Origin: Elusimicrobiota bacterium
GTDB taxonomy: Bacteria > Elusimicrobiota > Elusimicrobia > UBA1565 > UBA9628
DNA length: 48,416 bases
Assembly (NCBI GenBank): GCA_043783505.1
Contig: JAYVZL010000361.1
Location: 1 to 48,416 of the forward strand
Direction of reading: 5' to 3'
Both the position numbers and the translations under genes were made by a program. Below, one piece after another: positions 1,363 to 43,991 of this stretch. The notes under the pieces were generated by a model that was not told the DNA's origin, ran no database searches, and saw nothing but the letters and a program-made list of their open reading frames with translations. The stretch's first letter is position 1, and every line of letters starts with the position of its first letter.

Positions 1363-3180
1363 TTAGTGCGAGAACAGCACTTTGAAGGCATCCTCGGGAG
1401 AACTTTGGCCCGAGGCGACGAGCTCGATGGCCCCGCGCCGCATCGGCGTCATCCCTTCGGCGACGGCTTGGCGAAAAATGGCGTCTTCATCGCCCGTCAA
1501 TACGAGACGGCGCAGCTCGATGCTGTCGAGATCCATCACCTCGAAGACAGGGCGGCGGCCGATAAATCCCGTGCCTTTGCATTTTTTGCATCCGAACGCT
1601 CTATAGACCTTCCCGATTAAGGTGCGTTCCTCGGGAGAAAGCAGGGCGGCTTCCGCCGGAACCAGGGGGCTGGCCCGCTTGCAGTCCGGGCACAGAAGAC
1701 GGACCAGACGCTGGCCGATAATGAGCCTAAGGGCCGCGGCGATAAGATAGGGCTTGATGCCGATGTTGATCAAGCGCGTCACCGTGGCCGCGGCGGAATT
1801 GGTGTGCAGCGTGGAGAGGACCATGTGGCCGGTCACGGCGGCGCGCATGCCGATCTCGGCGGTCTCCAGGTCCCGCATCTCGCCGACGAGGATGACGTTG
1901 GGGTCTTGGCGCAGCAGCGAGCGCAGCACGCGCTCGAAGGTCAGACCTGCGTCGGGGTTGACCGACACTTGCGTTATCCCCGGGAGCTTGTACTCCACCG
2001 GGTCCTCGACGGTCACGATGTTGCGGTCCTCCGTGTTGAGCTTGCTGAGCATCGTGTACAGAGTGGTCGTCTTTCCCGAGCCGGTCGGACCGGTGGCGAG
2101 AACGATGCCCTGAGGCGCGCTGAGGATGGTCTCCACACAGATCTTGTCCCGGGGCTTCATGTCCATGCTCGCCTCGGAGAGATTGCCTTTGTCCTGCGCG
2201 AGCAGGCGCAGGACCAGCTTTTCGCCGTACAACGAGGGCAAAGTACTCATGCGGCATTCCGTGTCCTTCACCGCGGGGTTGCGTATTTGAAATCGGCCGT
2301 CCTGAGGAAGCCGGTGCTCGGAAATGTCGAGGTTGGCCATGATCTTAAGCCGCGCGGCTACTTTCGCGCTTAATCGAGACGGAAGCCGATGCGCGACCTT
2401 GAGCACGCCGTTGACTCGCATGCGTATGACGAGCTCCGATGATTGCGGCTCGATGTGGATGTCGCTGGCGCCAAGCGTGGCGGCTTCGGCGACGATGCGA
2501 TCGACCATGATGACCAATGGAGAGTTCTCCTTGGCCAAGATCGAATTGTTGAACTCCCCGCTCCCGCTCTCAAGGACGTCGGCGGCGTTTCCCGCCTCTA
2601 AGATCAACTGCTTAAAATCGGCGTCCAGCTTCGCCGCGGCGACGGGCTGTATTTCCTGCGGAACGCCCGCGGTGGATGCCACAAGAACTATTTTTCCTGC
2701 GGCTGGACCGTCCGCGGGCAAGACGAGGGGCGGAGCAGAGGGAGAGACGGACAAAAAGGGGGCCGTAAACTCCTCTTTCGCGCCGTTCGTGGCGTTCGCG
2801 TTCTCCGGGTCTTTTGCCGGGACTTGCGCGAGGGCCGCCTTGACGGCGGCGGCCAGGGCGTCGATGTCGAAAGGCTTGACCAGGAAAGCGGACACCTCGA
2901 GCTCGACTAGCCCGTGTATCTCCTTCTTCGTTCCCGTCAGCATGATGACCGGAATCTTCGTCCAGCCGCCCTGCCGTATCTTGGTCAGCACTTGAAAGCC
3001 GTTGATCTCGGGCATCTCGAAGTCGAGGACGACGAGATCAAAGCCGGGAGGGTTGTTCAGATAGGACAGGACATTCCGGCCGTTGTTGAGTGTCGTGACC
3101 TTCATCCCCTCCTGCTCGAGGACCCATTTGATCACCAGCGTCACGTTCGGATCGTCATCGATCGTGAGAATTCGGGCCAT
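1363..3180 (-). CDS. Response-regulator receiver fused to a GspE/PilB-type secretion ATPase
   Basis: The N-terminus is a REC domain (ILTIDDD...DLVVLDFEMP...IMLTG...VKPF). The C-terminus is a T2SS-E ATPase with Walker A GPTGSGKTTT, EDPVEY, LRQDPNVILVGEMRD and a tetracysteine CPDC...CKKCKGTG. Start chosen at MARILTIDDD (ATG at 3180). Confidence 0.85.
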   Translation of the reverse strand: MARILTIDDDPNVTLVIKWVLEQEGMKVTTLNNGRNVLSYLNNPPGFDLVVLDFEMPEINGFQVLTKIRQGGWTKIPVIMLTGTKKEIHGLVELEVSAFLVKPFDIDALAAAVKAALAQVPAKDPENANATNGAKEEFTAPFLSVSPSAPPLVLPADGPAAGKIVLVASTAGVPQEIQPVAAAKLDADFKQLILEAGNAADVLESGSGEFNNSILAKENSPLVIMVDRIVAEAATLGASDIHIEPQSSELVIRMRVNGVLKVAHRLPSRLSAKVAARLKIMANLDISEHRLPQDGRFQIRNPAVKDTECRMSTLPSLYGEKLVLRLLAQDKGNLSEASMDMKPRDKICVETILSAPQGIVLATGPTGSGKTTTLYTMLSKLNTEDRNIVTVEDPVEYKLPGITQVSVNPDAGLTFERVLRSLLRQDPNVILVGEMRDLETAEIGMRAAVTGHMVLSTLHTNSAAATVTRLINIGIKPYLIAAALRLIIGQRLVRLLCPDCKRASPLVPAEAALLSPEERTLIGKVYRAFGCKKCKGTGFIGRRPVFEVMDLDSIELRRLVLTGDEDAIFRQAVAEGMTPMRRGAIELVASGQSSPEDAFKVLFSH

Positions 3181-3247
3181 GTCCCCAAGGATAGCCAGGG
3201 GTCCGGAATTAATCAAGGGGCGCATGATTAATATACAATCAACGATT

Positions 3248-6003: not shown

Positions 6004-7056
6004 ATGAAATTGTTTCTGCTTCCGGCCTGGCTCTTTCTCGTCGTCGGCGCTAGCGCCCAGACGACCCGGCTTATCGAACTGCCCGACGGCAGCCGGCGGA
6101 GCATGACGCAAGATCAGATCAAAAAACTCTCTCTCCAATCTCACGAAGGCGGGGACTGCCCGGGCTTTATCGATGTGACCGACGCGCAGGCCGGGATCGG
6201 GATCATGAGCGCCGATCACGAGCCCTGGGCCCAGCTGAAGACGCCGATCCCGGCGCAGAAAGAAATCGTCGGCAAGCTTCTCTTGGAGCTGTCCGCTTCA
6301 GAGCTTCTTTCCAATGTCCTGGAGATATCGCGCTATCCCGATCGTGCCTATGACAGCGAGCGGGGCGAGAAAGCCGCTCATTGGGTTCGCGACCGCTTCG
6401 CCGCCGCGGGAGGCTCGCCTGAGCTTATTAAACACCCGCAGTGGCGACAGCCCACGGTCGTCGCCCGGCTCAAGGGGTCGGGGCCCCATGCCGACGAGCT
6501 CGTCGTCCTCGGCGCGCACATGGACTCAGTCGATGGCGCGCCCGGCGCCGACGACAACGGCTCGGGCGTCGCGGTTCTTCTCGAGGTATTCCGAGTGTTG
6601 TCGAAGTCCGGCCTCAAGCTCGACCGCACCATCGAGTTCATCGGATACTCCGCCGAGGAGCCGGGGCTGCGCGGGAGCCAAGCCATCGCCCAGCGCTACA
6701 AGCGAGAAGGTCGCAAGATTTTCGGCGTGCTTAATTTTGACATGGTCATGTATCATGAGTCGAAGCCGGCCGTCGGCGTCACGATGATGCCGGAGCTCAA
6801 TTTCGAGCTCGTCGCCGCTCTTAAGAAGCTAATCGAGACGTACTCGTCCCTGCCTTGGGAGGAGCGCCATACCTGCTGCAGCGACTGGAAGTCTTGGGCG
6901 CAATCCGGATTTCCCGCCGCAAACATGCGCGACGATCCCGCCTACCCGCATTACCATCGCCCCGGCGACACGCCCGACAAGCTCGACGCCGCCTACGGAC
7001 TGCAGTTCGCCCGGGTCGCGCTGGCCTTCGCCGTCGAGCTTGGCTTAGCGCGCTAG
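6004..7056 (+). CDS. M28 family aminopeptidase, secreted
   Basis: Signal peptide MKLFLLPAWLFLVVGASA. Metal-ligand contexts are present: GAHMDSV, GADDNGSGVAVLLE, YSAEEPGLRGS and HYHRPGD. Confidence 0.8.
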   Translation: MKLFLLPAWLFLVVGASAQTTRLIELPDGSRRSMTQDQIKKLSLQSHEGGDCPGFIDVTDAQAGIGIMSADHEPWAQLKTPIPAQKEIVGKLLLELSASELLSNVLEISRYPDRAYDSERGEKAAHWVRDRFAAAGGSPELIKHPQWRQPTVVARLKGSGPHADELVVLGAHMDSVDGAPGADDNGSGVAVLLEVFRVLSKSGLKLDRTIEFIGYSAEEPGLRGSQAIAQRYKREGRKIFGVLNFDMVMYHESKPAVGVTMMPELNFELVAALKKLIETYSSLPWEERHTCCSDWKSWAQSGFPAANMRDDPAYPHYHRPGDTPDKLDAAYGLQFARVALAFAVELGLAR

Positions 7057-7802
7057 TCCGCGGATTTTAGGACGGCGGGCAAGGTCGAAGCCGGCACCGC
7101 GCGCACGCGCGCCGATACTTCGTTAACCCCGGAGCTCTTGTACCGCACGAGCAATGATTTTTTTCGGATCTTGACCGAGACGATGCCGCAGTCGGCGCGG
7201 CAGGCGAGAAAAATCGCCATCTGCGCGGAAAAATCGACGGAAGGCGCTTTCTTGGGAAGCCCCGCGGCGGTCCAGGCTGTTTGCAGCGATGCGGCGTTCT
7301 TGAGGATTAAGGCGGTCGGAGCCGGGGCGACGGGGCGCGCCGGCGGAGCGATGTGTTCGTGGCCGGATTCTATTTCGATGATCTTGACGATTCCCATCCG
7401 CTTCTTTTGCTTCTCCAGATCTTGATAGAGACGCTCGTTGATGGCCGAGCGCTCCTCTTCACTTCGTGGATTGAAGGCGCCGGGGGCCGGCGCGGCCTTA
7501 TCTTCCACGGCCTCGAGGGGTTTTCCGGGAGCGGATTTCTGGGAGCTGGCGGCCGCTCTGCGTTCGGCGGGCTTCGTCAAGCCGCCGCTTAAGTCCAATT
7601 GCGAGGACGGGGCGTCCGCCGCGGTTTTGACGTCGACCTTATCTCCCTGCCAGCCGACGGGGACGGGAGTCGGCTCCACCGGCGGATGGATCTTCTCCCA
7701 AACGGCGAAGGCGACAAGCGAAGCGGAGAGGATGAAAACCGGCAGGCGATAGGTCGGTGGCAGGAACACCCACTGCTTTTGATCTTGAGGAGAGGCCATC
7801 AC
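7053..7802 (-). CDS. Membrane-anchored hypothetical protein (C-terminus weakly PrcB_C-like)
   Basis: One N-terminal TM helix (LPVFILSASLVAFAVW), then a Pro/Ala-rich linker, then a C-terminal ~80-aa globular part. Its start abuts the scoB stop, with a 1-nt gap. Confidence 0.5.
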   Translation of the reverse strand: MMASPQDQKQWVFLPPTYRLPVFILSASLVAFAVWEKIHPPVEPTPVPVGWQGDKVDVKTAADAPSSQLDLSGGLTKPAERRAAASSQKSAPGKPLEAVEDKAAPAPGAFNPRSEEERSAINERLYQDLEKQKKRMGIVKIIEIESGHEHIAPPARPVAPAPTALILKNAASLQTAWTAAGLPKKAPSVDFSAQMAIFLACRADCGIVSVKIRKKSLLVRYKSSGVNEVSARVRAVPASTLPAVLKSAD

Positions 7803-7803
7803 G

Positions 7804-8469
7804 CTAATCCGCGTAAGTCGCGATCTGGGAGGCGGGCGTAAAGGGCGCGCCGGTAAGCGACTTGATCTGGTCGAGGGTCGTGTTGGGAGACATCGCTGTT
7901 AGGACTAGACCCTCTTTGCCTATCTCGAAGGTGGCGAGTTCGGTGACGATCGCGTGCACCACGCCTTTGCCGGTCAGCGGCAGCGTGCATTTGGGCAGGA
8001 TCTTCGGCTTGCCGTCCTTGGTGGCGTGTTCCATGGCCACGATCACACGCTTGGCGCCGGCGACCATGTCCATGGCCCCGCCCATGCCCTTGACTTTCTT
8101 GCCCGGGATCATCCAATTGGCCAGGTCGCCGTCCGCGGAGACCTCCATGGCGCCGAGCACGGTCGCGTCTAGGTGCCCGCCTCGGACGATCGCGAAGGAC
8201 TCGTGAGACCCGAAATAGGAACAACCGGGCAACTCGGTCACGGTTTCCTTGCCCGCGTTGATTAGATCGGGGTCCTGGTCGCCTTCGCGTGGATAGGGGC
8301 CGTAGCCGAGCATCCCGTTTTCGGTGTGCAAGGTGACTTCCACGCCCTTGGGCAGGTAATTGGGGATCAAAGTCGGGATGCCGATGCCGAGATTGACGTA
8401 GGCGCCGTTCTGCAGAAGGCGCGCGGCCTGTTTGGCGATGACGACGCGGGAATCTTTTGGTTCAGGCAT
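7804..8469 (-). CDS. scoB: 3-oxoacid CoA-transferase subunit B
   Basis: [23 protein letters not shown]...[10 protein letters not shown]...NAGKETVT...[11 protein letters not shown]...[18 protein letters not shown]. Full length (221 aa). Confidence 0.85.
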
Positions 8470-8482
8470 TGGTCGCGCGGCC

Positions 8483-9715
8483 CTAAATAAGGAGCTGAGC
8501 CTGTTCCTTGGGCAGCAACACGAAGAAGGACGAGCCTTTGTTGAGCTCGCTCTCGACGCGGACCATGCCTTGATGGGCGTGGATGATGCTGCGGCAAATT
8601 AGCAGCCCCAGCCCAAAGCCTTCTTTCTTGCCTTGGACCGCATTGGATCCGCGGATGAACGCGTTGAAGATATCGTCGATATTCTCAGACGGAATGCCCT
8701 GTCCGTGATCGTCGACGCGCACCTCGACGTTGCGATTCTGCTCGGTCACGCTTATTTCCGCGCCGGTGTTCTGAGGGGAGTACTTTAGCGCGTTTTCGAC
8801 GATATGGACGAGAGCCTCTTCGATTTTCGAGGCGTCCATCTCGACGATCACCGGTTGGGGCGGGCAGGACAGCTTGATCGGGACCTGCGGATGGATGACG
8901 CGGAATTTGGCGGCTATTTTTTCGACCACCTGCCGAATATCGGACCTTGTCAGCTGAAGCGGAACGCTGGTCGATTCCGTCAGCTGCACCTTTAATAGAT
9001 CGTCGATTAGGCGCAGCATCCTTTCCCCTTCGTCTCGCATCTCGCGCAGGCAGTCCGTGATTTTGACCGGATCTAGATGGATTTTCGGATCAAGCGCGCG
9101 CTGGATCGAGCTAAGGAGGATGCCCAACGGATTTTTGAGCTCGTTGGAGACGAGGCTGATGTACTGGTTCTTGTCCTCCGTCAGTTGGCGAAGCTTATAG
9201 TTCGTATCCAGGAGATCTCGAGTCCGGTGCTTGACGACGTCCTCGAGTTTGATGTGGCGGCTATCCTCATCCTGCTGGAGCTTCTTGAGCCCCAAATGCA
9301 TCGAGATGATGTTGAAGAACTCATCCAGCGAGAACGGCTTGCTTAAATAATCGGTGGCGCCCAGGCGCAGGGCGCGGACCACCGCGTCGTAGTCCGCAAA
9401 ACCGGTGATCAGGATGACCGGGATCTTGGTCTTGCTCTCTCGGCGGGCCTCCTCGGCCCGTATGCCTTCCAGGAGATCCACGCCGTTCATGTCCGGCATG
9501 CGCATATCCGTGATCACCAAGTCGATGCGCATGCGAGTGAACAGCTCGAGTGCGACGACGCCGTTATCGGCGGCGAAGACTTGATAGCCCTTCATCTCCA
9601 CGCCGCGGCTGAGGCTGTCGCGAAAGTTCTTGTCGTCCTCGACGATCAGGATCGTCTCTTTTAGAGCGGCAATGTTTTCGCTCGTGCGCTCGGAGGGGGC
9701 TTGCTTCTCGGTCAT
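8483..9715 (-). CDS. Hybrid REC-HisKA-HATPase protein whose H-box His is replaced by Asn (kinase paralog A)
   Basis: REC motifs: [26 protein letters not shown]. The DHp H-box reads [11 protein letters not shown], and I checked the aac codon on the nucleotide sequence near 9150. The N, G1 and G2 boxes are intact ([22 protein letters not shown]). Trimmed from ORF 8483..10426 to the ATG at 9715. Confidence 0.8.
9281..9327. repeat. 47-bp perfect inverted repeat, copy 1 (inside kinase paralog A)
   Basis: cttcttgagccccaaatgcatcgagatgatgttgaagaactcatcca is the exact reverse complement of 13853..13899. Confidence 0.9.
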
Positions 9716-9763
9716 GAGTTTTGTTTTCCGCGGGAGATGGTGTGTCGCTTGTGTACCGGCGTC

Positions 9764-9792
9764 TTGACAATAGTGGATTCGCATCATAACAT
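9764..9792 (+). promoter_or_regulatory. Candidate sigma70-type promoter for the beta-propeller/CheY operon
   Basis: TTGACA (9764-9769), a 17-nt spacer, then TAACAT (9787-9792). It lies in the 117-bp divergent intergenic region. GGGAGA RBS at 9821-9826. Confidence 0.35.
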
Positions 9793-9832
9793 ATGCCCGC
9801 GGATCGTAAAAAGTTCCGATGGGAGAAAAATA

Positions 9833-11074
9833 ATGAGAAAAATTTTGGTTGCCTGCCTCGCTCTTGCGCTGATCGCGACGGTTTGTCCGACCCCTTCCCT
9901 GGCGGCCAAGGCCAAAAGCGCCCCCAAGACGCTGCTGGTCACGCTCAACATCAACGCCGACGATAGCAAGGGAAAAGAGGGTCGTTCTTTGATCTTTATC
10001 GATGTCGCCACCGATCGGACGTGGAGTCTGCCGTTTAGCATGATTTCGGGCGGCGTGCTTGAGGGTCAGCCCATGCATGCCGTCCTTGCTCTCGATAAAA
10101 ACAGAGCCTACGTGACGATGGGGGGCAATGACAAGCTTCCGCTGCGGCTGGCGGTGCTTAAGCTGGACTGGTCGACCGGCTCTCCAACGGCTACCCTCGT
10201 CAAAACCGTCGAGGTGCTGGCGGCCAATACCGCTGCGACGGGCATGATGGCGGGGATGACCGACATGGCTGCGGCGATGCAGGAGGGACATGGGCCGCAT
10301 CTCACTTCGAACGGACGCTACATCCTGTTCAGCGAGCTCAACAATAACCGGCTGCGCGTTTTTAACACCCAAACCGACGAATTCGTTGGGGCGCCCCTCG
10401 CCCATCCCACCCTGAAGACCCCCCATGGAGTCTACCCCAACCGTTCCATGACTCGGGCCATGTCGACCCAGTATGAGTTAAACGGCAACGAGGTTTCCGT
10501 CTGGAAATTAAACCCCGCCACCGGAGCGTTGGCGTTCGACAAGGCGGTCAAGATGTCGGATGGACCGACTCAATGCGCGTACACGCATACAGCCGCCTGG
10601 CTCGATGAGGACCGCTTTTACACGAACTGCACTCAGGAAGCCAACCAAGGGGCTTTGAACACGTCCGAGCGATCCGTATGGCTGGTCGACGCGGCAAAAG
10701 GGACCGCAAAGGCCGTCCTGAAGGCCTCCGATCTGCTGGAGGGAGTGTCCGACGTCGCTATCGCTCAGGGCAAGCTTTATGTGGCCGAGGGCAACATCGC
10801 GAAAACCGGCACGCCGCCCGGTCATGTCTCTATTTGGAATATCAAGGACAACCTCAAGCCGGTGTTTATCAAGCGCTTCAGCGCCGGGAAGGGTTTGCCC
10901 GCGGGCTACGCGGACACCCACGAGTTGGCCGTCACGCCGGACAGCCGCTACGTGTTCGCGGAAAGCTTTCGCAGCGGGTACGTGATTAAAATCGACGCGA
11001 AGACGGACGCCGTCGCCAAGATATGGAGCGCCGCCGAGGGCGTGAGCATGCCGCACGGCTTCGACATCCAGTAG
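9833..11074 (+). CDS. Secreted beta-propeller-repeat protein (YVTN/lactonase-like) with a Met/His-rich loop
   Basis: Signal peptide MRKILVACLALALIATVCPTPSLA. Repeated strand-rich segments, each containing a 'PHG' or 'THE'. Met-rich stretch TGMMAGMTDMAAAMQEGHGPH. Trimmed from ORF 9701..11074. The fold assignment is by eye only. Confidence 0.55.
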   Translation: MRKILVACLALALIATVCPTPSLAAKAKSAPKTLLVTLNINADDSKGKEGRSLIFIDVATDRTWSLPFSMISGGVLEGQPMHAVLALDKNRAYVTMGGNDKLPLRLAVLKLDWSTGSPTATLVKTVEVLAANTAATGMMAGMTDMAAAMQEGHGPHLTSNGRYILFSELNNNRLRVFNTQTDEFVGAPLAHPTLKTPHGVYPNRSMTRAMSTQYELNGNEVSVWKLNPATGALAFDKAVKMSDGPTQCAYTHTAAWLDEDRFYTNCTQEANQGALNTSERSVWLVDAAKGTAKAVLKASDLLEGVSDVAIAQGKLYVAEGNIAKTGTPPGHVSIWNIKDNLKPVFIKRFSAGKGLPAGYADTHELAVTPDSRYVFAESFRSGYVIKIDAKTDAVAKIWSAAEGVSMPHGFDIQ

Positions 11075-11086
11075 AGCCTAACGAAC

Positions 11087-11497
11087 ATGAGTCCAACGTC
11101 TGCACGCGTACTCGTCATCGACGATCAAAAAGGCATGCGCGACATGCTTTGCTTCAATTTAAAGCAGAAGAATATCGAGGTGACCGCCGCCGAGGACGGT
11201 GAAAAGGGCGTGGAGGCCGCTCTCGGCGGCGATTTTGACGCCGTCGTGTGCGACATCATGCTCCCCGGCTTGGACGGCATCGCGGTCCTTCAAATCCTCA
11301 AGCGGGAGCGACCGAAGCTGGAGGTCATCCTCGTCACTGGATTTCCGAGCCCCGAGCGGCGCGCCCGCGCCAAGGAACTCGGCGCCTTCGAGTTCCTTGC
11401 GAAGCCCTATAAGATGGAGCTGCTCTGCTCCCTGCTCGAGGAAGCGGCGACGCGAAAACGCGCGAACAACGATCCGAAGAAGCCGGGTCCGGCCTAG
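11087..11497 (+). CDS. Single-domain CheY-like response regulator
   Basis: VLVIDDQ...DAVVCDIMLPGLDG...ILVTG...LAKPY. No output domain. Starts 12 nt after the propeller gene. Confidence 0.85.
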   Translation: MSPTSARVLVIDDQKGMRDMLCFNLKQKNIEVTAAEDGEKGVEAALGGDFDAVVCDIMLPGLDGIAVLQILKRERPKLEVILVTGFPSPERRARAKELGAFEFLAKPYKMELLCSLLEEAATRKRANNDPKKPGPA

Positions 11498-12075
11498 GCC
11501 GGCGAGATCACGATGTCATATTCGCACACCGCGTCGCCTTTGTTCATGCAGGACTTGTGCGTGACGTCTATCTTATTTTTGTAATAAGCGCCGACAGCCT
11601 CGATGATTCCGACGTTGAAGGCGCATAGTTTTCGGGGCGAACGGTAGAAAAGCTGGAGGTGGTTGGGGACGGAGGTTTCCCTGACCTCGAGAAGTGGAGG
11701 GATCCTCTTTTTTAGAAAAGGGCAGGAGGCCTCTTCTCCGCCGCCCTGGAAGTCTTTATTGACCGCGAGGCGGATTTTCTCATGCGCGGTGAGCAGGAAG
11801 TCTTTGGCGGTCTTCTGGACGATCAAATGAGCGTAGACGTCGAAGAGCTTGGTCATTTCAAAGACGCCGAACTCATGCAGCACGTCTTCGACGGGCTTGC
11901 CGGCGGTGTTGGCCGCGGCCACGACGACGTTGACGACGGCTTCATCGGGGATGTCCGCGGAGGGAGGAAACACGTCGGAGGCAAGCTTTGTCGCCTTCAT
12001 CACGCCGGGCCACACGGAGGCGCCGAGCTTGGCGCCGACATACTCTTTAAAATGCGTCGCGACGATTCCTTTCAT
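11494..12075 (-). CDS. H-NOX (heme NO/O2-binding) domain protein
   Basis: Starts MKGIVATHFKEYV. Candidate proximal His in LLTAHEKI. A PP element is present (RIPPLL). The YxSxR motif is present as YRSPR. C-terminal CMNKGDAVCEY. GGAGG RBS upstream of the ATG at 12075. Confidence 0.7.
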   Translation of the reverse strand: MKGIVATHFKEYVGAKLGASVWPGVMKATKLASDVFPPSADIPDEAVVNVVVAAANTAGKPVEDVLHEFGVFEMTKLFDVYAHLIVQKTAKDFLLTAHEKIRLAVNKDFQGGGEEASCPFLKKRIPPLLEVRETSVPNHLQLFYRSPRKLCAFNVGIIEAVGAYYKNKIDVTHKSCMNKGDAVCEYDIVISPA

Positions 12076-12120
12076 GTGTCCTCCCCAATTAGCGCTTACC
12101 ACAACGCCATAAGCACGCTA

Positions 12121-12129
12121 TGTTATACT
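12121..12129 (+). promoter_or_regulatory. Candidate extended -10 element (TGTTATACT) for the PAS kinase gene
   Basis: Matches the TGnTATAnT pattern, 27 nt upstream of the ATG at 12156, within the 80-bp divergent H-NOX/kinase intergenic region. Confidence 0.3.
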
Positions 12130-12155
12130 TCTGAAGATATGGGTGTCAATCAACG

Positions 12156-13277
12156 ATGAGTGATCGGGAGACGAGCGATGTGGGCGACAGCGAGATCGCC
12201 GAGCATTGGCGCGCGTTCTTTCAGTCCGCATTGGAGGCTTTGCCCGTGGGCGTGCTGCTTGTCAACCGCGCCACCTACATCATCTCGGTCAACAGAGCTT
12301 TCGAGGGTCTCTTCGGGTTCTCCCGCGCCGATGTGGAGACCCAGAAATTGGATGCGGTGATGCCCGAAGCGCTGTTGAAGGAATTCAAGCTCGCCGAGCG
12401 CGTGATGAACGTAGCCTCCTCGGAATCGGGCGACGACGCGTTCGAAGCAGGCCTCAAGATTCAAGGCAAGGATAAGATCCTGCAGTGCATGCTGCGCTCG
12501 GGACAGCACTCCGACCAAGCGACGCGAGGCGCGCCCGTCATCGTGCTCGTGTTCAAGGATGTGACTCACGAGCGGCTCCTGCAGCAGCAGCTCGCCCAGA
12601 GCGGCAAAATGGCCTCCATCGGCCAAATCGCGGGCGGCGTCGCCCATGAGATCAATACGCCGCTGGCCTCGATTCTTTTCAACGTCCAGCTGTTGCAGAC
12701 CTTGCCCGTGACCGATGAGATCAAAGCCGTGCTGAAATCCGTGGAGTCCTCGACGGCGCGCTGCAAGGATATCGTGCAGATGCTCATGAGCTATGTGCGC
12801 CCTACCCAGATGGGCGTGCGTCTTACGCCGATCCGGCTGGCTCCGGTCATCGAGCAGGCGATGGGCCTTATGGGGTCCCTGCTTCAGGCGGATAACGTGA
12901 AGGTCGTGCGCGATATCCGCGCCGACCCCACTGTGCGAGGCCATGGCACCGAGATTTCCCAGATTCTGGTGAACTTCCTGAGCAACGCCAAGGATGCCGT
13001 CGCGGACCGTCCTTCGAAGGTGGTGCACGTGCGGCTCTATGCGGAAGGGGGTCAGGCGGTTTTGGAGGTGGAGGACAACGGAGAAGGGATGTCGGCCGAC
13101 GACGCCTCCCGCGTCTTCGAGCCGTTCTTCACCACCAAGGGGGTCGGCAAGGGCACCGGCTTGGGTCTGGCGGTCTCCAAGAGCATCGCCGACAAGCATG
13201 CCGGCGTCATCGCGGTCAAATCCCAGCGGGGCAAAGGCTCGCTGTTCTCCTTTCGTTTGCCGCTCGTGGGATCGTGA
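12156..13277 (+). CDS. PAS-domain sensor histidine kinase (H-NOX-associated by position)
   Basis: PAS-like N-terminus (LPVGVLLVNRATYIISVNRAFEGLFGF...VFKDVTHER). H-box GVAHEINTPL. N box LSNAKDA. G1 DNGEGM. G2 GTGLGL. Confidence 0.85.
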   Translation: MSDRETSDVGDSEIAEHWRAFFQSALEALPVGVLLVNRATYIISVNRAFEGLFGFSRADVETQKLDAVMPEALLKEFKLAERVMNVASSESGDDAFEAGLKIQGKDKILQCMLRSGQHSDQATRGAPVIVLVFKDVTHERLLQQQLAQSGKMASIGQIAGGVAHEINTPLASILFNVQLLQTLPVTDEIKAVLKSVESSTARCKDIVQMLMSYVRPTQMGVRLTPIRLAPVIEQAMGLMGSLLQADNVKVVRDIRADPTVRGHGTEISQILVNFLSNAKDAVADRPSKVVHVRLYAEGGQAVLEVEDNGEGMSADDASRVFEPFFTTKGVGKGTGLGLAVSKSIADKHAGVIAVKSQRGKGSLFSFRLPLVGS

Positions 13278-13305
13278 CCAGACCGAAGAAGAGGAAATCG
13301 TCGCC

Positions 13306-14697
13306 ATGAAAGAGAATCTCTTGATCGTCGAAGAGGACAAGGATATTCGCGGCTTCCGCGGCCCGGACATCGAGCGGACGGGGCGCATCATGGATGAGTC
13401 CGGCCGCAAGAAGCAGGCCAAGATCCCGGCCGAATCCATCGCTCCGCGGACGTTCGTCGACGAGGCCGCCGCGCAGGATAGCGACGCCGCGTCCCCGAGA
13501 GAAAAAACCGCCATCGTCAAAGAGAATCTCTTGATCGTCGAGGACGACAGCGAGTTTCTCAACAGCCTGAGCATGGGCGCGCAGATGAAGGGCTATCGGG
13601 TCTTCGCGGCCAAGAACGGCATCGAAGCGATGGCGCTGTTTTCCACCGAGCCGATCGATCTGGTGATAACGGATATGCGCATGCCGGACATGAACGGCGT
13701 CGAGCTGCTCGAGGGCATACGCGCCGAAGAGGCCCGTCGAGACAATTCTTCCAAGACTCCGGTCGTCCTCATCACCGGGTTCGCGGACTACGACGCGGTG
13801 GTCAAGGCGCTGCGCCTGGGTGCGGCGGACTATTTAGGCAAGCCGTTCTCGTTGGATGAGTTCTTCAACATCATCTCGATGCATTTGGGGCTCAAGAAGA
13901 TCGAGCGGGATCAAAAGAACCGCCACCTCAGGCTCGAGGACATGGTCATGCAGCGGACCCAAGATCTGCTGGCCGCCAACCACAGGCTTCAACTGCTGAC
14001 GGAAGATAAGAACCAGTTCATCGGCGTCGTCTCCCATGAGCTCAGAAATCCCTTGACCGTCATCTACAGCTGCGTGGAATCCATCGTCGGCGCGCAAAGC
14101 AAGCTCGGTCCCGAGCAGGTCGCCAACTATCTGCATAAGGTGCGCGACGAAGCGAGTCGTATGCTGCGGCTTCTCAACGACCTTTTGACGCTGCAGACGA
14201 CGGAGTCGTCGAATATCCCGCTGCAGTTGGAGAATGCCGACGTCGTCGAGGTGGCCAAGAGGGTCGTTTCTAAGTTCCACATCACCCACCCGGATATTCC
14301 CATCAACCTGTCCTGCCCGAGCGGGCCACTGTCGATGGAGATGGACGCCAATAAGATCGAGGCGACGTTCATCAATATCATCGACAACGCGATCAAATAT
14401 TCGCCTCAGAAAACCGCTGTGGACGTGAACGTGACCGAGAGGGACGGCAGCGTCGAGGTGCGAGTCGCCGACCACGGGTTGGGTATCCCGCCGGAAAATA
14501 TCGAGGATATCTTCAATGCGTTCTTCCGCGGCGCCAATGTGGCCCGCGGCAAGCAGGAAGGGTTCGGTCTTGGCCTTCTGATCTGCCGGAACATCATCCA
14601 TGCCCATCAGGGCAAGATATGGGTTGAGAGCGAGTTAAACAAAGGCTCGACCTTCATATTTCAGCTGCCTAAAGAGCAGAGGCAAGGCATTCTTTAG
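13306..14697 (+). CDS. Hybrid REC-HisKA-HATPase histidine kinase (paralog B, His intact) with a duplicated REC N-terminal stub
   Basis: GAGGAA RBS 9 nt upstream of the ATG at 13306. REC motifs: [27 protein letters not shown]-box VVSHELRNPL. N, G1 and G2 boxes present. The alternative start at ATG 13390 cannot be excluded. Confidence 0.8.
   Translation: MKENLLIVEEDKDIRGFRGPDIERTGRIMDESGRKKQAKIPAESIAPRTFVDEAAAQDSDAASPREKTAIVKENLLIVEDDSEFLNSLSMGAQMKGYRVFAAKNGIEAMALFSTEPIDLVITDMRMPDMNGVELLEGIRAEEARRDNSSKTPVVLITGFADYDAVVKALRLGAADYLGKPFSLDEFFNIISMHLGLKKIERDQKNRHLRLEDMVMQRTQDLLAANHRLQLLTEDKNQFIGVVSHELRNPLTVIYSCVESIVGAQSKLGPEQVANYLHKVRDEASRMLRLLNDLLTLQTTESSNIPLQLENADVVEVAKRVVSKFHITHPDIPINLSCPSGPLSMEMDANKIEATFINIIDNAIKYSPQKTAVDVNVTERDGSVEVRVADHGLGIPPENIEDIFNAFFRGANVARGKQEGFGLGLLICRNIIHAHQGKIWVESELNKGSTFIFQLPKEQRQGIL
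13309..13331 (+). repeat. 23-bp perfect direct repeat, copy 1 (aaagagaatctcttgatcgtcga)
   Basis: Identical to 13519..13541, exactly 210 bp (70 codons) downstream and in frame. Both copies encode KENLLIVE. Confidence 0.9.
13519..13541 (+). repeat. 23-bp perfect direct repeat, copy 2
   Basis: Identical to 13309..13331. Confidence 0.9.
13853..13899. repeat. 47-bp perfect inverted repeat, copy 2 (inside kinase paralog B)
   Basis: tggatgagttcttcaacatcatctcgatgcatttggggctcaagaag is the reverse complement of 9281..9327. It encodes [16 protein letters not shown] in both genes. Confidence 0.9.
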
Positions 14698-14728
14698 GAG
14701 CGGCGCAACGCCCTAAAGAATCCCGGGA

Positions 14729-15436
14729 CTAGAGAGGTGCTGCCGCCTTGCGCACGGTGAGCTTTTCGATCGGCTTGAGATACTTCGGGCCGGCGAGGAC
14801 GAAGTCGACGTAGATGCCGGGCGTGTGGATGTGATCGGGCGGCAGGTCCCCGATCTCGACGAGCTGCTCGACCTCGGCGATCACGCAGTCGGCGGCGGTG
14901 GCCATGACCTGGTTGAAGTTGCGCGAGGTCTTTCGGTACTGCAGGTTGCCCAAGACGTCGCCCTTCCAAGCCTTCACGAAGGCGAAGTCGGCGCGCAGGG
15001 GCTTCTCGAAAACCATCCAGCGGCCGTCGATTTGTCGCGTTTCCTTGCCCTCGGCCACGAGCGTTCCATAGCCGGTGGGGGTAAAGAAGCCGCCGATGCC
15101 GGCCCCGCCGGCGCGCAGGCGCTCGGCCAGCGTGCCCTGTGGGTTCCACTCGACTTCGAGCTGCTTGGTCAGAGTCATCTCCTCGAAGGCCTTGCACTCG
15201 CCTCCGTAGGACATGATCATCTTGCGGACTTGGCCGTTGCGCAGCAAAGTGCCGATGCCGAACTCATCGAGGCCGGCGTTGTTGGACACGAGGGTCAGGC
15301 CCTTGGTCCCGCTCGCGCGCAGAGCGGCGATGAGGTTCTCGGGCAGACCGCAAACGCCGAAGCCGCCGATGAGGACGGTCGCCCCGTCCTTGACCCTTGC
15401 GGCGGCCTCGGCGGCGGTGGCGACGGTCTTGTTCAT
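14729..15436 (-). CDS. scoA: 3-oxoacid CoA-transferase subunit A
   Basis: VKDGATVLIGGFGVCGLPENLI...LTLVSNNAG...GTLAERLRAGGAGIGGFFTPTGYGT. Full length (235 aa). Confidence 0.85.
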   Translation of the reverse strand: MNKTVATAAEAAARVKDGATVLIGGFGVCGLPENLIAALRASGTKGLTLVSNNAGLDEFGIGTLLRNGQVRKMIMSYGGECKAFEEMTLTKQLEVEWNPQGTLAERLRAGGAGIGGFFTPTGYGTLVAEGKETRQIDGRWMVFEKPLRADFAFVKAWKGDVLGNLQYRKTSRNFNQVMATAADCVIAEVEQLVEIGDLPPDHIHTPGIYVDFVLAGPKYLKPIEKLTVRKAAAPL

Positions 15437-15455: not shown

Positions 15456-16664
<1,209 letters not shown>

Positions 16665-27944: not shown

Positions 27945-29114
27945 CTAAGTACCGGGGAAGCCGCCGCTCTCGAGTTGTGTCCAAGGGATGGCTGTTAGCC
28001 CTGGAGCGAGTCGAAGTGCCCGCTCTCCTCGATAGACGACGAAGCCCGAACGAAGCTGAAGATCCTTCATGCACTGGCGGATCCCGAGCAAGCCCTTGGC
28101 GGACAGCGAGGAGCCCGCCTTGACCTCCACGACCATTCGCGTGCGGCCGTTTTCGATGATCAAGTCGGCTTCCGCTCCGGCCTGGGTCCTCCAGAAGTAG
28201 CAGCCCGGAGCCGGCCAGCGCAGCTTCGCCCGGCGGATAAGTTCCTCAAGGACGAACCCTTCCCAAGAGTTTCCCCGTCCGGGCCAAGTCTCCAAGTCTT
28301 GAGGCCTCCGCAGTCCGGCGAGGTGGTGCAGAAGCCCCGTGTCCCGGATGTAGAGCTTGGGGCTCTTGACCAGGCGTTTGGAGATGTTCGCGTGGTAGGG
28401 CTGCAGACGGCGGATCATGAAAGCGCCTTCTAAAATATCGAGATGATGGGCCACGCTGGGAACACTTAGGTCGAGCGATCTCGCCAAGTCCGAGAGATTG
28501 AGCAGGCCGCCATGGACGTGGGCGAGCATCATCCAGAGTTTACGCAGGCGCACGGCCGGCACTTGGATTCCCATGGCAGGGATGTCCCTTTCAAGAAAAG
28601 TGCGGACATACTGCTCAAGCCAGGAGGTCTTGCTCTGCGCCGAGTTCAGCGCATAGAGCGGCGCAAGGCCGCCCCAGAACCATCTTTGCGCCAGCCAGCG
28701 CGGCTTTGCCGCCAGCTCGGAACTGCCGAAAGGCGTCATTTCGAGGACCCCGATGCGGCCCGAGAGGCTCTCGCCGGACTGCTTCAGAAGGGGAGGCGCG
28801 GCCGACCCCGTCAAGACGAAGGACCCGGCTCGCCGCTTTCGGTCGACCACTCCGCGCAGGATCGGGAAAAGCTGAGGATAGCGCTGCGCCTCATCGATGA
28901 TCAGTTTTCCCGGGTTGGCCGCTAGAAACCCCTCGGGGTCGGAGCTCAGGAGGTCGAGATCGGTGGGGTTTTCAAGATCCAGGTACTTCCAGGAGGGAAG
29001 CTCGGCGCGGACTAAAGTCGTCTTGCCGGACTGTCTGGGGCCAGCTACGAGGACGACGGGGAAGATCTTGAGGTTGGATCGAAGGGCGGCGGCTTCGTCG
29101 CGCCTTATCAACAT
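27945..29114 (-). CDS. AAA-family ATPase of the AAA_14/DUF4143 type
   Basis: Walker A VAGPRQSGKTTL. Walker B LIIDEAQ. The C-terminal region is typical of DUF4143 proteins, including a winged-helix-like LSDLARSLDLSVPSVAHHLDILEG. Confidence 0.8.
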   Translation of the reverse strand: MLIRRDEAAALRSNLKIFPVVLVAGPRQSGKTTLVRAELPSWKYLDLENPTDLDLLSSDPEGFLAANPGKLIIDEAQRYPQLFPILRGVVDRKRRAGSFVLTGSAAPPLLKQSGESLSGRIGVLEMTPFGSSELAAKPRWLAQRWFWGGLAPLYALNSAQSKTSWLEQYVRTFLERDIPAMGIQVPAVRLRKLWMMLAHVHGGLLNLSDLARSLDLSVPSVAHHLDILEGAFMIRRLQPYHANISKRLVKSPKLYIRDTGLLHHLAGLRRPQDLETWPGRGNSWEGFVLEELIRRAKLRWPAPGCYFWRTQAGAEADLIIENGRTRMVVEVKAGSSLSAKGLLGIRQCMKDLQLRSGFVVYRGERALRLAPGLTAIPWTQLESGGFPGT

Positions 29115-43962: not shown

Positions 43963-43991
43963 GACGGAAGTATGCCACATATCTGACGGGC

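What the first reader, a model, noticed from the sequence alone, without database searches (positions are those of the whole stretch)
7804..15436. scoA and scoB are split by a 6.26-kb six-gene signalling cassette
Both CoA-transferase subunit genes are intact and on the same strand. In other bacteria they form an adjacent two-gene unit (A then B). Here 6,259 bp (8470-14728) lie between them. That stretch holds a REC-kinase hybrid, a secreted beta-propeller, a CheY-like regulator, an H-NOX protein, a PAS kinase and a second REC-kinase hybrid. The cassette fits tightly, with gaps of only 13 bp and 31 bp to scoB and scoA. As a result scoA now follows metK, and scoB follows the His-less kinase paralog. 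No integrase or transposase is present, so how the cassette got there is unexplained.
Basis: partly seen in the sequence, partly recalled or inferred. Interest (0 to 1): 0.7.

Follow-up and report, generated by a model that had tools for sequence, protein, structure and literature searches.

The report
Signalling gene cassette splits scoAB operon
In one small branch of uncultured groundwater Elusimicrobiota, a 6.3-kb block of six signalling genes was inserted long ago between two overlapping genes that encode the halves of one CoA-transferase; both halves survived intact, so this is a well-documented but fairly ordinary case of an operon being split.

Summary
scoA (14729-15436) and scoB (7804-8469) are intact, lie on the minus strand and are 6,259 bp apart.

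In about 57 other Elusimicrobiota genomes, metK-scoA-scoB is contiguous. In the closest ones scoA and scoB overlap by 8 nt (ATGTCTGA). The split occurs in the window, in two contigs with identical genes, and in at least four further lineages from other samples. Window and L083 group together inside the contiguous genomes. The split is therefore one old, derived insertion.

Synonymous divergence of the cassette genes equals that of the flanks. dN/dS is 0.08-0.27 for every gene, including scoA and scoB.

The insert runs from the stop codon of one REC-histidine-kinase gene to the stop codon of its inverted paralogue. This is a 1.2-kb inverted repeat with 62% amino-acid identity. A relic of about 20 nt of the scoB 5' end follows the scoA stop, so the target was duplicated.

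No integrase, transposase or tRNA is present, and GC3 is native. A simpler version of the module lies next to murC in a related contig.

scoB now sits 6-14 nt behind the His-less kinase, downstream of a promoter-like site inside the cassette.

The "H-NOX" protein lacks the haem-ligating histidine. The insertion mechanism remains unknown. Interest is moderate.

The parts
15456..16664 (-). metK (S-adenosylmethionine synthetase). It is the ancestral upstream neighbour of scoA.
   Evidence: Three S-AdoMet synthetase Pfam domains. metK lies upstream of scoA on the same strand in most Elusimicrobiota loci, usually within 10-330 nt but up to about 8 kb.
14729..15436 (-). scoA, 3-oxoacid CoA-transferase subunit A, 235 aa, intact.
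   Evidence: TIGR02429 at 280 bits (cut-off 128.5). PF01144 E=4e-73. dN/dS 0.10-0.11 against the split relative L083.
14698..14728 (-). Left junction spacer (31 nt). The first ~11 nt (TCCCGGGATTC) are a relic of scoB nt +9..+20. The rest forms a hairpin with the 3' end of RHK2 (ATTCTTTAG-N15-CTAAAGAAT).
   Evidence: Sequence. Relic versus the ancestral GCCCAAGGATTC: P=0.002 in the window and P=0.027 in L083. Hairpin energy -22 to -25 kcal/mol, z -1.6 to -2.5. The hairpin is absent from L083.
13306..14697 (+). RHK2: REC-HisKA-HATPase kinase, 463 aa, with the phospho-acceptor His (SHELRNP). It is convergent with scoA and forms the right-hand arm of the inverted repeat.
   Evidence: Pfam. 62% aa identity to RHK1. 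H-box in the alignment. dN/dS 0.19.
13290..13558 (+). Degenerate partial duplication of the REC 5' end inside RHK2. It gives RHK2 a ~65-aa N-terminal extension.
   Evidence: Direct repeat D1, 13290-13348 / 13500-13558, 76%. Inverted match I3, 13393-13429 to RHK1 9418-9454. Second BLASTP segment. The extension is also present in the L083 orthologue P0042.
12156..13277 (+). PAS-HisKA-HATPase histidine kinase (365-373 aa), upstream of RHK2 on the same strand.
   Evidence: Precomputed Pfam PAS/HisKA/HATPase_c. The best NCBIfam match is AtoS at 207 bits, far below its cut-off of 646.
12076..12155 (.). Divergent intergenic region between the H-NOX-like gene and the PAS kinase. It holds a promoter-like site TTGACA-18-TAACAT (12149-12120, minus strand) pointing at the H-NOX-like gene.
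   Evidence: The motif is conserved in L083 and degenerate in L096.
11494..12075 (-). H-NOX-fold (HNOB) protein, 193 aa. It keeps YxSxR (Y144, S146, R148) but has Arg102 in place of the proximal haem-ligating His. It also carries a 12-aa insertion with an invariant Cys.
   Evidence: PF07700 E=2e-22. The best PDB sequence match is S. oneidensis H-NOX 2kii, E=2e-12, whose H103 aligns with R102. Alignment A4. Invariant residues in the orthologues.
11087..11497 (+). Single-domain CheY-like response regulator, 136 aa. Its 3' end overlaps the 3' end of the H-NOX-like gene by 4 nt.
   Evidence: PF00072 E=4e-24. Coordinates.
9833..11074 (+). Secreted 7-bladed beta-propeller, 413 aa, with an N-terminal signal peptide and six invariant His residues.
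   Evidence: No Pfam or NCBIfam family. AlphaFold2 pLDDT 91, pTM 0.88. Foldseek PDB hits 1l0q, 3u4y and 4qrj, TM 0.58-0.75. Only 25 homologues among 5.8 billion proteins. Invariant His.
9716..9832 (.). Divergent intergenic region between RHK1 and the propeller gene. It holds overlapping promoter-like sites: TTGACA-17-TAACAT (9764-9792, +) for the propeller, and TTTACG-16-TATGAT with a TG (9810-9783, -) for RHK1-scoB.
   Evidence: The region is conserved in L083.
8483..9715 (-). RHK1: REC-HisKA-HATPase paralogue, 410 aa, with His->Asn at the phospho-acceptor site (SNELKNP). It forms the left-hand arm of the inverted repeat and lies directly upstream of scoB.
   Evidence: Pfam. The Asn is present in all five RHK1 orthologues P0043-P0047. 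dN/dS 0.20.
8470..8482 (-). Right junction spacer (13 nt, GGCCGCGCGACCA) between the RHK1 stop and the scoB ATG.
   Evidence: The spacer is 6-14 nt in the five lineages. Its resemblance to the ancestral scoA 3' end is not significant (P 0.08-0.17).
7804..8469 (-). scoB, 3-oxoacid CoA-transferase subunit B, 221 aa, intact, with the catalytic-Glu motif TENG.
   Evidence: TIGR02428 at 307 bits (cut-off 243.6). Sequence. dN/dS 0.08.
8482..9693 (.). Left arm of the 1.2-kb inverted repeat. Its partner is 13487-14698.
   Evidence: Inverted repeats I1 (585 nt, 78%) and I2 (450 nt, 72%). The outer ends fall at 8482 and 14698, which are the ends of the insert.
7053..7799 (-). Conserved hypothetical gene (248 aa) that also follows scoB in contiguous relatives.
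   Evidence: tblastn synteny. No Pfam or NCBIfam family.

Best explanation
Shown. In the common ancestor of a small subclade of uncultured Elusimicrobiota, a block of six two-component signalling genes was inserted once into the 8-nt overlap between scoA and scoB. Those two genes were translationally coupled within a conserved metK-scoA-scoB arrangement. The event duplicated at least ~20 nt of the target (the overlap plus the first codons of scoB). As a result scoA kept its stop codon and scoB kept its start codon. Both genes have stayed under purifying selection as strong as in unsplit relatives.

Inferred with fair support. The core of the insert is an H-NOX-like gene divergent from a PAS kinase and a REC-kinase. 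It belongs to a module family that also occurs at another chromosomal site in a related Elusimicrobiota-like contig. Its codon usage is native. The source was therefore the same lineage or a close relative, not a distant donor.

The REC-kinase gene was duplicated in inverted orientation at about the time of the insertion. The two copies now form the exact ends of the insert. The copy next to scoB lost its phospho-acceptor His and has been kept in that state.

Inferred consequence. scoA is still expressed with metK. scoB, and the conserved gene after it, is now transcribed with the His-less kinase from a sigma-70-like promoter inside the cassette. The two halves of one enzyme are therefore made from separate transcription units.

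Not resolved. The enzyme or repair process that carried out the insertion is unknown.
For: Synteny:
- All loci that carry both genes have them adjacent, except the split group.
- The closest relatives share the ATGTCTGA overlap.

A single derived event:
- Window and L083 group together, nested among contiguous genomes, with contiguous L009 as sister (neighbour-joining, no bootstrap).
- The same order and junction positions occur in independent assemblies: L001, L002, L083-L085, L086/L087, L098 and L099.

Age and inheritance:
- Window versus L083 dS is 0.43-0.69 for cassette genes and 0.20-0.73 for flanking genes.
- RHK1/RHK2 paralogue dS is 0.80-0.95. This is close to the dS between the window and the nearest contiguous genomes, 0.63-0.90.

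Selection:
- dN/dS is 0.10 for scoA and 0.08 for scoB.
- Pairs of contiguous genomes give 0.07-0.16 and 0.10-0.23.
- All cassette genes fall at 0.08-0.27.

Target duplication:
- scoA keeps its ancestral length and stop position, and scoB keeps its ancestral start.
- A relic of scoB nt +9..+20 follows the scoA stop (P=0.002 in the window, P=0.027 in L083).

Inverted-repeat ends: arms 8482-9693 and 13487-14698, 62% aa identity.

Origin:
- L096 carries H-NOX-like (73%), PAS kinase (60%) and a single REC-kinase (57-58% to both paralogues) next to murC.
- Its MurC is 76% identical to that of L009.
- No other REC-kinase exceeds about 39% local identity (33% over most of the length).
- GC3 is 0.78 in the cassette against 0.81 elsewhere, P=0.19.

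Expression:
- All three promoter-like hits in 9.2 kb fall in the two divergent intergenic regions, and they are conserved in L083.
- The RHK1-scoB gap is 6-14 nt in five lineages.
Against: - No transcript data exist. Co-transcription of RHK1 and scoB rests on spacing and a consensus scan whose total hit count (3) is close to the shuffle expectation (2.2).
- The taxon of L096 is inferred from one protein (MurC, 76%).
- The whole-genome content of the split lineages is unknown. A second scoAB copy, or an empty or occupied L096-type site, cannot be checked.
- The relic at the right junction is not statistically significant.
- dS values of 0.6-0.95 are close to saturation in this GC3-rich genome, so the relative dating of the paralogue duplication and the insertion is rough.
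- Total GC of the cassette (58.5%) is lower than that of any equal-sized window elsewhere in the 48 kb (minimum 60.6%). The difference lies in codon positions 1 and 2.
Confidence: 0.75

Rival explanations
1. The cassette is, or was, a mobile element. One form would be an integrase-type island whose att-like direct repeats rebuilt both gene ends and whose integrase was later lost. The other would be a foldback or composite-type unit whose ends are the 1.2-kb inverted kinase genes, moved by a transposase supplied in trans.
For: - The insert ends coincide with the outer ends of the inverted repeat. In L083 the 10-nt left spacer resembles the scoB relic along its whole length (7 of 12 positions).
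- The target is duplicated over at least ~20 nt.
- The insertion restored two overlapping genes, as integrative elements do at their targets.
Against: - No integrase, transposase, tRNA or other mobility gene occurs in the window or within 10 kb in relatives.
- The cassette is found at only one site in all the public data searched.
- The related module in L096 is not bounded by inverted repeats.
- By my own count on the sequences, the outermost 36 nt of the two arms are less alike (about 64%) than the arms overall (72-78%). This gives no sign of conserved recognition ends.
- A duplication of 20 nt or more is longer than the usual transposase footprint (general knowledge).
- Gene packing is tight throughout this genome, so exact ends could result from later trimming.
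Confidence: 0.15
2. The insertion is adaptive rewiring. Placing scoB behind the His-less kinase puts assembly of the CoA-transferase under control of the H-NOX-like sensing pathway.
For: - The RHK1-scoB linkage is tight and conserved in five lineages.
- A promoter-like element inside the cassette is conserved.
- Selection on every component is strongly purifying.
- The PAS kinase's best NCBIfam match is AtoS. In E. coli, AtoS controls the homologous atoDA CoA-transferase genes (for the match; general knowledge for ato).
Against: - The cassette encodes no DNA-binding or other recognisable transcriptional output.
- The AtoS match (207 bits) is far below its cut-off of 646 and looks like generic PAS-kinase similarity.
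- The related module in L096 works without any scoAB neighbour.
- Conserved linkage is expected from simple inheritance once the insertion was fixed.
Confidence: 0.15
3. The split arrangement is ancestral, and the contiguous scoAB of other Elusimicrobiota arose by loss of the cassette.
For: None beyond the fact that deletions are common.
Against: - The split group is nested within contiguous genomes.
- Contiguous scoAB also occurs in the Myxococcota, Bacteroidota and Sphingomonadaceae outgroups.
- Many independent, precise deletions that each recreate the same 8-nt overlap would be needed.
- The relic of the scoB 5' end after the scoA stop only makes sense as a duplication of an already contiguous target.
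Confidence: 0.02
4. The split is an assembly or binning chimera.
For: All the sequences are metagenome assemblies.
Against: The same junctions appear in contigs assembled independently from different samples and by different pipelines: ENA ERZ27314312, ERZ28573543, ERZ909583, ERZ1292639 and ERZ27315198; NCBI GCA_001458795.1; JGI 3300038829; and Logan SRR21685395. These copies are 76-97% identical rather than clonal.
Confidence: 0.01

Closest known systems
Contiguous scoAB / atoDA / pcaIJ genes for family-I 3-oxoacid CoA-transferases
   Same: Both subunit genes pass the TIGR02429 and TIGR02428 cut-offs. The B subunit keeps the ENG catalytic-Glu motif. The genes are orthologous to the adjacent pair in relatives.
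   Different: Here the pair is interrupted by 6.26 kb and the two genes lie in different transcription units. Every one of the other ~78 loci examined has them adjacent or overlapping.
Bacterial H-NOX / HnoK-type signalling operons (Shewanella hnoX-hnoK with HnoB, HnoC and HnoD; H-NOX/HahK)
   Same: An HNOB-fold protein is encoded next to cytoplasmic histidine kinases and receiver proteins. The best structural relative by sequence is S. oneidensis H-NOX. His-containing homologues at 27-34% identity sit in classic operons of REC-EAL, H-NOX, kinase and HD-GYP, or next to NnrS.
   Different: - The proximal His is replaced by Arg, and there is a 12-aa Cys-containing insertion.
- The gene is divergent from its kinase rather than co-oriented with it.
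- The kinase has a PAS domain.
- No EAL, HD-GYP or DNA-binding output is encoded.
- There are two REC-first kinases, one of them His-less, and a secreted propeller.
Genomic islets and integrative islands that insert into genes and rebuild them with flanking direct repeats
   Same: This is a discrete block that is absent from relatives, flanked by a duplicated piece of the target, and both interrupted genes are restored.
   Different: There is no recombinase, no tRNA target, no foreign GC3 and a single known site. The ends are formed by an inverted gene-length paralogue pair.
Pseudo-histidine kinases (paralogues that lack the phospho-acceptor His)
   Same: RHK1 keeps its receiver Asp-containing motif, DHp helix and ATP-binding boxes but has Asn at the H-box. 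This state is conserved in five lineages with dN/dS 0.20.
   Different: It is the inverted twin of an intact kinase in the same cassette, and it is now the gene that leads scoB.

Membership tests
3-oxoacid CoA-transferase, subunits A and B (family I CoA-transferases) | Sequence membership in the A- and B-subunit families | tested here: met
   TIGR02429 at 280 bits (cut-off 128.5) and TIGR02428 at 307 bits (cut-off 243.6). PF01144 matches both.
3-oxoacid CoA-transferase, subunits A and B (family I CoA-transferases) | Catalytic glutamate in the (S/T)ENG motif of subunit B | tested here: met
   scoB reads ...[10 protein letters not shown].... The role of the motif comes from general knowledge of the family.
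3-oxoacid CoA-transferase, subunits A and B (family I CoA-transferases) | A and B genes adjacent in one operon | tested here: not met
   They are 6,259 bp apart here and adjacent in all other loci examined. This is a feature of gene order, not of the enzyme.
3-oxoacid CoA-transferase, subunits A and B (family I CoA-transferases) | Substrate pair (succinyl-CoA:acetoacetate versus acetate:acetoacetyl-CoA) | not testable with these tools
   The acetate CoA-transferase equivalog NF007394 scores 228 bits, below its cut-off of 315.
H-NOX (haem-nitric oxide/oxygen binding) sensors | HNOB fold / family match | tested here: met
   PF07700 E=2e-22 over 163 of 163 profile positions. PDB H-NOX proteins match at E=2e-12.
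H-NOX (haem-nitric oxide/oxygen binding) sensors | Proximal histidine that ligates the haem iron (So H103, Sw H104) | tested here: not met
   So H103 aligns with Arg102. The motif is I-R-L-A-V in four cassette-type proteins against I-H-x-E-V in eight His-type relatives. Sw H104 is named as the proximal His in bioRxiv 10.1101/2020.08.21.262071. The equivalence with So H103 follows from the identical 29-residue spacing to YxSxR.
H-NOX (haem-nitric oxide/oxygen binding) sensors | YxSxR motif that binds the haem propionates | tested here: met
   Y144, S146 and R148 are invariant. The role of the motif is stated.
H-NOX (haem-nitric oxide/oxygen binding) sensors | Haem and gas binding | not testable with these tools
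   This needs the purified protein and spectroscopy.
Hybrid (REC-containing) histidine kinases | HisKA with phospho-acceptor His, HATPase_c and a receiver domain | tested here: met
   RHK2 has all three domains and SHELRNP.
Hybrid (REC-containing) histidine kinases | Phospho-acceptor His in RHK1 | tested here: not met
   SNELKNP occurs in the window and in four further orthologues. RHK1 is therefore filed as a pseudo-kinase paralogue.
Mobile genetic elements (integrative island or transposon) | A recombinase or transposase gene, or a tRNA target | tested here: not met
   None was found in the window or in the flanks of relatives.
Mobile genetic elements (integrative island or transposon) | Flanking direct repeat of the target | tested here: met
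   The overlap and the scoB 5' end are present twice. The left relic is significant (P=0.002 and 0.027). The right relic is not.
Mobile genetic elements (integrative island or transposon) | Copies at more than one site, or in unrelated hosts | tested here: not met
   All cassette copies found lie between scoA and scoB.
Mobile genetic elements (integrative island or transposon) | Foreign composition | tested here: inconclusive
   Total GC is 58.5% against 62.8%, but GC3 is 0.78 against 0.81 (P=0.19).
YVTN / lactonase-type 7-bladed beta-propellers | Fold match with a confident model | tested here: met
   pLDDT 91. Foldseek E down to 3e-13 with TM 0.58-0.75 to 1l0q, 3u4y and 4qrj, and a match to YncE 7seu.

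The most novel reading that the evidence does not exclude
The cassette may be a previously undescribed sensing system. It would be built on an H-NOX-fold protein that has lost its haem-ligating histidine (Arg102, plus a conserved Cys-bearing insertion), paired with a kinase and its His-less inverted twin, and with a rare secreted His-rich propeller. By capturing scoB behind the His-less kinase, it would make assembly of a two-subunit CoA-transferase depend on the signal it senses. A still bolder variant is that the inverted kinase genes themselves served as the ends of a non-autonomous mobile unit.
Probability: 0.12. Interest if true: 0.6.

Novelty: new variant of a known kind. Interest (0 to 1): 0.38.

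Why it matters
This is a clean, datable natural experiment. Two overlapping, translationally coupled genes for one enzyme were separated by 6.3 kb, and both stayed under unrelaxed purifying selection across several lineages. It shows that such coupling can be given up.

It also shows how an insertion into overlapping genes can be survived, namely by duplicating the overlap.

The locus offers three testable side questions:
- What does an H-NOX fold without its iron ligand sense?
- What does a conserved His-less kinase twin do?
- Does placing scoB behind that twin tie central CoA metabolism to a signal?

None of this overturns current understanding. The value is mainly for operon evolution and for annotating Elusimicrobiota signalling.

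Tried and rejected
1. Distant homologues of the propeller (39-56% identity) were checked for the cassette. They sit in unrelated contexts, so the propeller did not lead to a donor.
2. A metagenome scan with an alignment of the H-NOX-like proteins returned only the already known CXWL01004515 contig.
3. Cluster names gave no organism for L096. Its affinity rests on MurC being 76% identical to that of L009.
4. A foreign-DNA test by composition found lower total GC but normal GC3 and codon choice. Recent acquisition from a distant donor is therefore not supported.
5. The relic of the scoA 3' end upstream of scoB looked convincing by eye in L086 and L099 (GGCCGCCC). It is not significant against shuffles (P 0.08-0.17), so it is reported only as a possibility.
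6. Terminator-like hits inside the region fall in coding sequence (the kinase G2-box regions) and were disregarded.
7. The analogy with AtoS/AtoC control of atoDA was considered. The scores are far below the cut-offs and there is no sigma-54 activator or DNA-binding output.
8. I looked for conserved terminal sequences at the outer ends of the inverted repeat. The last 36 nt are only about 64% alike by my own count, less than the arms overall.
9. A second scoA or scoB in the window was sought and not found.
10. Full-text searches found no paper linking H-NOX with Elusimicrobia, and only one paper holding the terms Elusimicrobia, groundwater and CoA transferase; I did not open it.

Full report
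**1. What is in the sequence**

Pfam, NCBIfam and the gene calls on two metagenome contigs with identical genes agree on the gene order below. Coordinates are on the plus strand of the window.

| Gene | Coordinates | Strand |
|---|---|---|
| scoB | 7804-8469 | - |
| RHK1 (REC-HisKA-HATPase) | 8483-9715 | - |
| Secreted protein | 9833-11074 | + |
| CheY-like receiver | 11087-11497 | + |
| HNOB-family protein | 11494-12075 | - |
| PAS-HisKA-HATPase kinase | 12156/12180-13277 | + |
| RHK2 (REC-HisKA-HATPase) | 13306-14697 | + |
| scoA | 14729-15436 | - |
| metK | 15456-16664 | - |

- scoA and scoB pass the curated cut-offs of TIGR02429 and TIGR02428.
- The secreted protein has no sequence family. 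It folds with pLDDT 91 into an all-beta structure that matches 7-bladed YVTN/lactonase-type propellers.

**2. Is the split derived?**

A scan of one genome per species with ScoA returned 80 loci. A tblastn synteny table shows scoA directly followed by scoB in every locus that holds both. This includes about 57 Elusimicrobiota genomes (61-88% ScoA identity) and outgroups from Myxococcota, Bacteroidota and Sphingomonadaceae. In most Elusimicrobiota loci metK lies upstream on the same strand, usually close by. In the closest relatives the genes overlap by 8 nt...GCCGCCGCCC ATGTCTGA GCCCAAGGA....

The split form was found in these places:
- the window and two contigs with identical genes;
- a second lineage, L083-L085 (groundwater; ScoA 91%, ScoB 92%, MetK 97%; cassette proteins 76-90%);
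- L086/L087;
- L099;
- the more divergent L098.

In a neighbour-joining tree of ScoA+ScoB (no bootstrap), window and L083 group together, nested among contiguous genomes, with the contiguous L009 as sister. This points to one insertion in the ancestor of a small subclade. The metK-scoA adjacency is ancestral and not a consequence of the insertion.

**3. Age and selection**

| Comparison | dS |
|---|---|
| Window vs L083, cassette genes | 0.43-0.69 |
| Window vs L083, flanking genes | 0.20-0.73 |
| Window vs nearest contiguous genomes | 0.63-0.90 |
| RHK1 vs RHK2 (paralogues) | 0.80-0.95 |

- The cassette was therefore already present in the common ancestor of window and L083 and has been inherited vertically since.
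- dN/dS is 0.10 for scoA and 0.08 for scoB. That is at the low end of the range among pairs of contiguous genomes (0.07-0.16 and 0.10-0.23). The split has not relaxed constraint on either subunit.
- Every cassette gene has dN/dS 0.08-0.27, including the His-less RHK1 at 0.20.
- The kinase duplication is roughly as old as the insertion. These dS values are near saturation, so the dating is only approximate.

**4. Junction anatomy**

- scoA keeps its ancestral length and stop position (CAT GTC TGA became CCT CTC TAG). scoB keeps its ancestral start (ATG TCT GAG became ATG CCT GAA). The 8-nt overlap therefore exists twice.
- After the scoA stop, the window reads TCCC-GGGATTC, compared with the ancestral scoB sequence GCCCAAGGATTC. 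L083 reads GACTCAAGCT. Against composition-matched random sequence these give P=0.002 and P=0.027.
- The target duplication thus spans at least about 20 nt.
- A matching relic of the scoA 3' end upstream of scoB (GGCCGCCC in L086 and L099) is plausible but not significant.
- The insert itself runs from the RHK2 stop to the RHK1 stop.
- These two genes are 62% identical in protein. They form an inverted repeat (8482-9693 and 13487-14698, 72-78% nt identity) whose outer ends are the ends of the insert.
- In the window only, the left spacer also holds a hairpin made with the last 9 nt of RHK2 (-22 to -25 kcal/mol). L083 lacks it.

**5. Where the cassette came from**

- REC-kinases of this type have no close relatives outside the cassette. 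After the RHK2 orthologues (78%) and RHK1 orthologues (57-62%) there is one single-copy protein, P0048 (58%). After that the best full-length matches are 33% identical; the highest local identity is 39% over half the length.
- P0048 lies on a 68-kb contig (L096) in a simpler module: two receiver proteins and the H-NOX-like gene (73%) on one strand, and the PAS kinase (60%) and one REC-kinase (57-58% to both paralogues) on the other.
- That module sits between murC and murA. It has no propeller, no CheY-like gene and no scoAB.
- The MurC of L096 is 76% identical to that of L009, the Elusimicrobiota sister of the split clade. In L009, murC lies only 1.5 kb upstream of htrA-metK-scoA-scoB.
- Cassette GC is 58.5% against 62.8% for the rest of the window, but GC3 does not differ (0.78 vs 0.81, P=0.19). 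The deficit is in codon positions 1 and 2, which reflects amino-acid composition.
- No integrase, transposase or tRNA gene was found in the scanned ORFs of the window or within 10 kb in relatives.
- The most economical reading is a module native to this bacterial group that was relocated, or exchanged between close relatives.
- I could not identify the mechanism. The long target duplication and the inverted-repeat ends are compatible with an integrative element that later lost its recombinase. They are equally compatible with a repair or replication accident followed by trimming.

**6. How the locus probably works now (inference)**

- All three sigma-70-like hits in 9.2 kb fall in the two divergent intergenic regions:
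  - TTGACA-17-TAACAT before the propeller gene;
  - TTGACA-18-TAACAT before the H-NOX-like gene;
  - TTTACG-16-TATGAT on the minus strand before RHK1.
- The first two share their architecture. They are conserved in L083, and the H-NOX one is conserved in degenerate form in L096.
- RHK1 ends 6-14 nt before scoB in all five lineages.
- scoB, and the conserved gene behind it, is therefore most likely transcribed with RHK1, while scoA stays with metK.
- The signalling genes themselves suggest a phosphorelay: PAS kinase to the receiver domains of RHK2, RHK1 and the CheY-like protein.
- No output domain is encoded, so there is no evidence that the cassette regulates transcription of scoB.

**7. The 'H-NOX' label**

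- The protein is a full-length HNOB match, and its best solved relative is S. oneidensis H-NOX.
- That protein's H103 aligns with Arg102 here. H103 is the counterpart of the proximal His104 of S. woodyi H-NOX; both lie 29 residues before YxSxR.
- Four cassette-type proteins read I-R-L-A-V and carry a 12-residue insertion with an invariant Cys. Eight relatives at 25-34% identity read I-H-x-E-V.
- Those His-type relatives sit in classic hno-type operons, with REC-EAL, a kinase and HD-GYP, or next to NnrS.
- The YxSxR motif is kept.
- The cassette protein therefore has the fold but fails one defining feature of the family. Its ligand is unknown.

**8. Verdict**

It is an old, lineage-specific insertion that split a coupled two-gene unit without harming either gene. 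Operon disruption by inserted genes is a known phenomenon.

The unusual points are:
- insertion into an 8-nt gene overlap;
- a target duplication of at least 20 nt;
- an insert bounded by an inverted pair of kinase paralogues, one of them kept as a His-less form;
- a non-canonical H-NOX-fold sensor.

Interest is moderate (0.38). I class it as a new variant of a known kind.

Noticed in passing
window 11494-12075 (-); also L083 11647-12228 and L096 8176-8754: The H-NOX-fold protein has Arg at the position of the haem-ligating proximal His. It also has a 12-aa insertion with an invariant Cys (EASCPFL) while keeping YxSxR. Only this small group (72-90% identical) has these traits. All relatives at 25-34% identity keep the His.
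   Followed up: yes
window 13290-13558 (+): RHK2 carries a ~65-aa N-terminal extension that is a decayed partial copy of its own receiver domain (MKENLLIVEEDKD..., ...GRKKQAKIP). It is conserved in the L083 orthologue and absent from RHK1 and from the L096 kinase. The kinase gene therefore underwent both a partial tandem duplication and a whole-gene inverted duplication.
   Followed up: partly
window 9833-11074 (+): The secreted propeller has only 25 homologues among 5.8 billion proteins. It has six invariant histidines spread along the sequence (H82, H153, H198, H252, H363, H408; motifs PHG and MPHG). This may indicate a metal site. Fold matches include cd1 nitrite reductase, NirN/NirF, hydrazine synthase and N2O reductase propellers, but only at generic fold level.
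   Followed up: partly
window 9764-9792 (+) and 12149-12120 (-); L083 and L096 counterparts: The propeller gene and the H-NOX-like gene are preceded by the same promoter-like architecture, TTGACA-N17/18-(A)TAACAT(A). It is conserved between lineages whose synonymous divergence is about 0.6, which suggests shared control.
   Followed up: partly
L009 2119-3468 (-) and L096 4928-6271 (+): In the contiguous sister genome L009, murC lies 1.5 kb upstream of htrA-metK-scoA-scoB. In L096 the simpler H-NOX-like module abuts the 3' end of murC (MurC 76% identical). This hints that the module may have moved only a short distance, but the other neighbours of murC differ between the two contigs.
   Followed up: partly
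window 14698-14730: A hairpin (9-bp stem ATTCTTTAG/CTAAAGAAT around an inner GGCG-TTG-CGCC stem) lies exactly between the convergent stops of scoA and RHK2. It has no U-tract and is absent from L083. It could be a bidirectional terminator or a local template-switch scar.
   Followed up: partly
window 1363-3225 (-): A PilB/GspE-type secretion ATPase has an N-terminal receiver domain (REC-T2SSE, 620 aa) and lies about 4.6 kb from scoB. It is conserved at the same place in L083 and is a possible phosphotransfer target of nearby kinases.
   Followed up: no
window 7053-7799 (-); L009 7925-8995: The conserved gene after scoB has no family in the window. Its longer L009 homologue (45% identical over the shared part) starts with a zf-HC2 anti-sigma-type zinc finger.
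   Followed up: no
window 27945-29114 (-) and 42577-43980 (-): An AAA_14/DUF4143 ATPase gene is present in the window; a homologue sits next to murC in L009. A TraF_2-family outer-membrane protein gene is also present. Neither is linked to the cassette.
   Followed up: no
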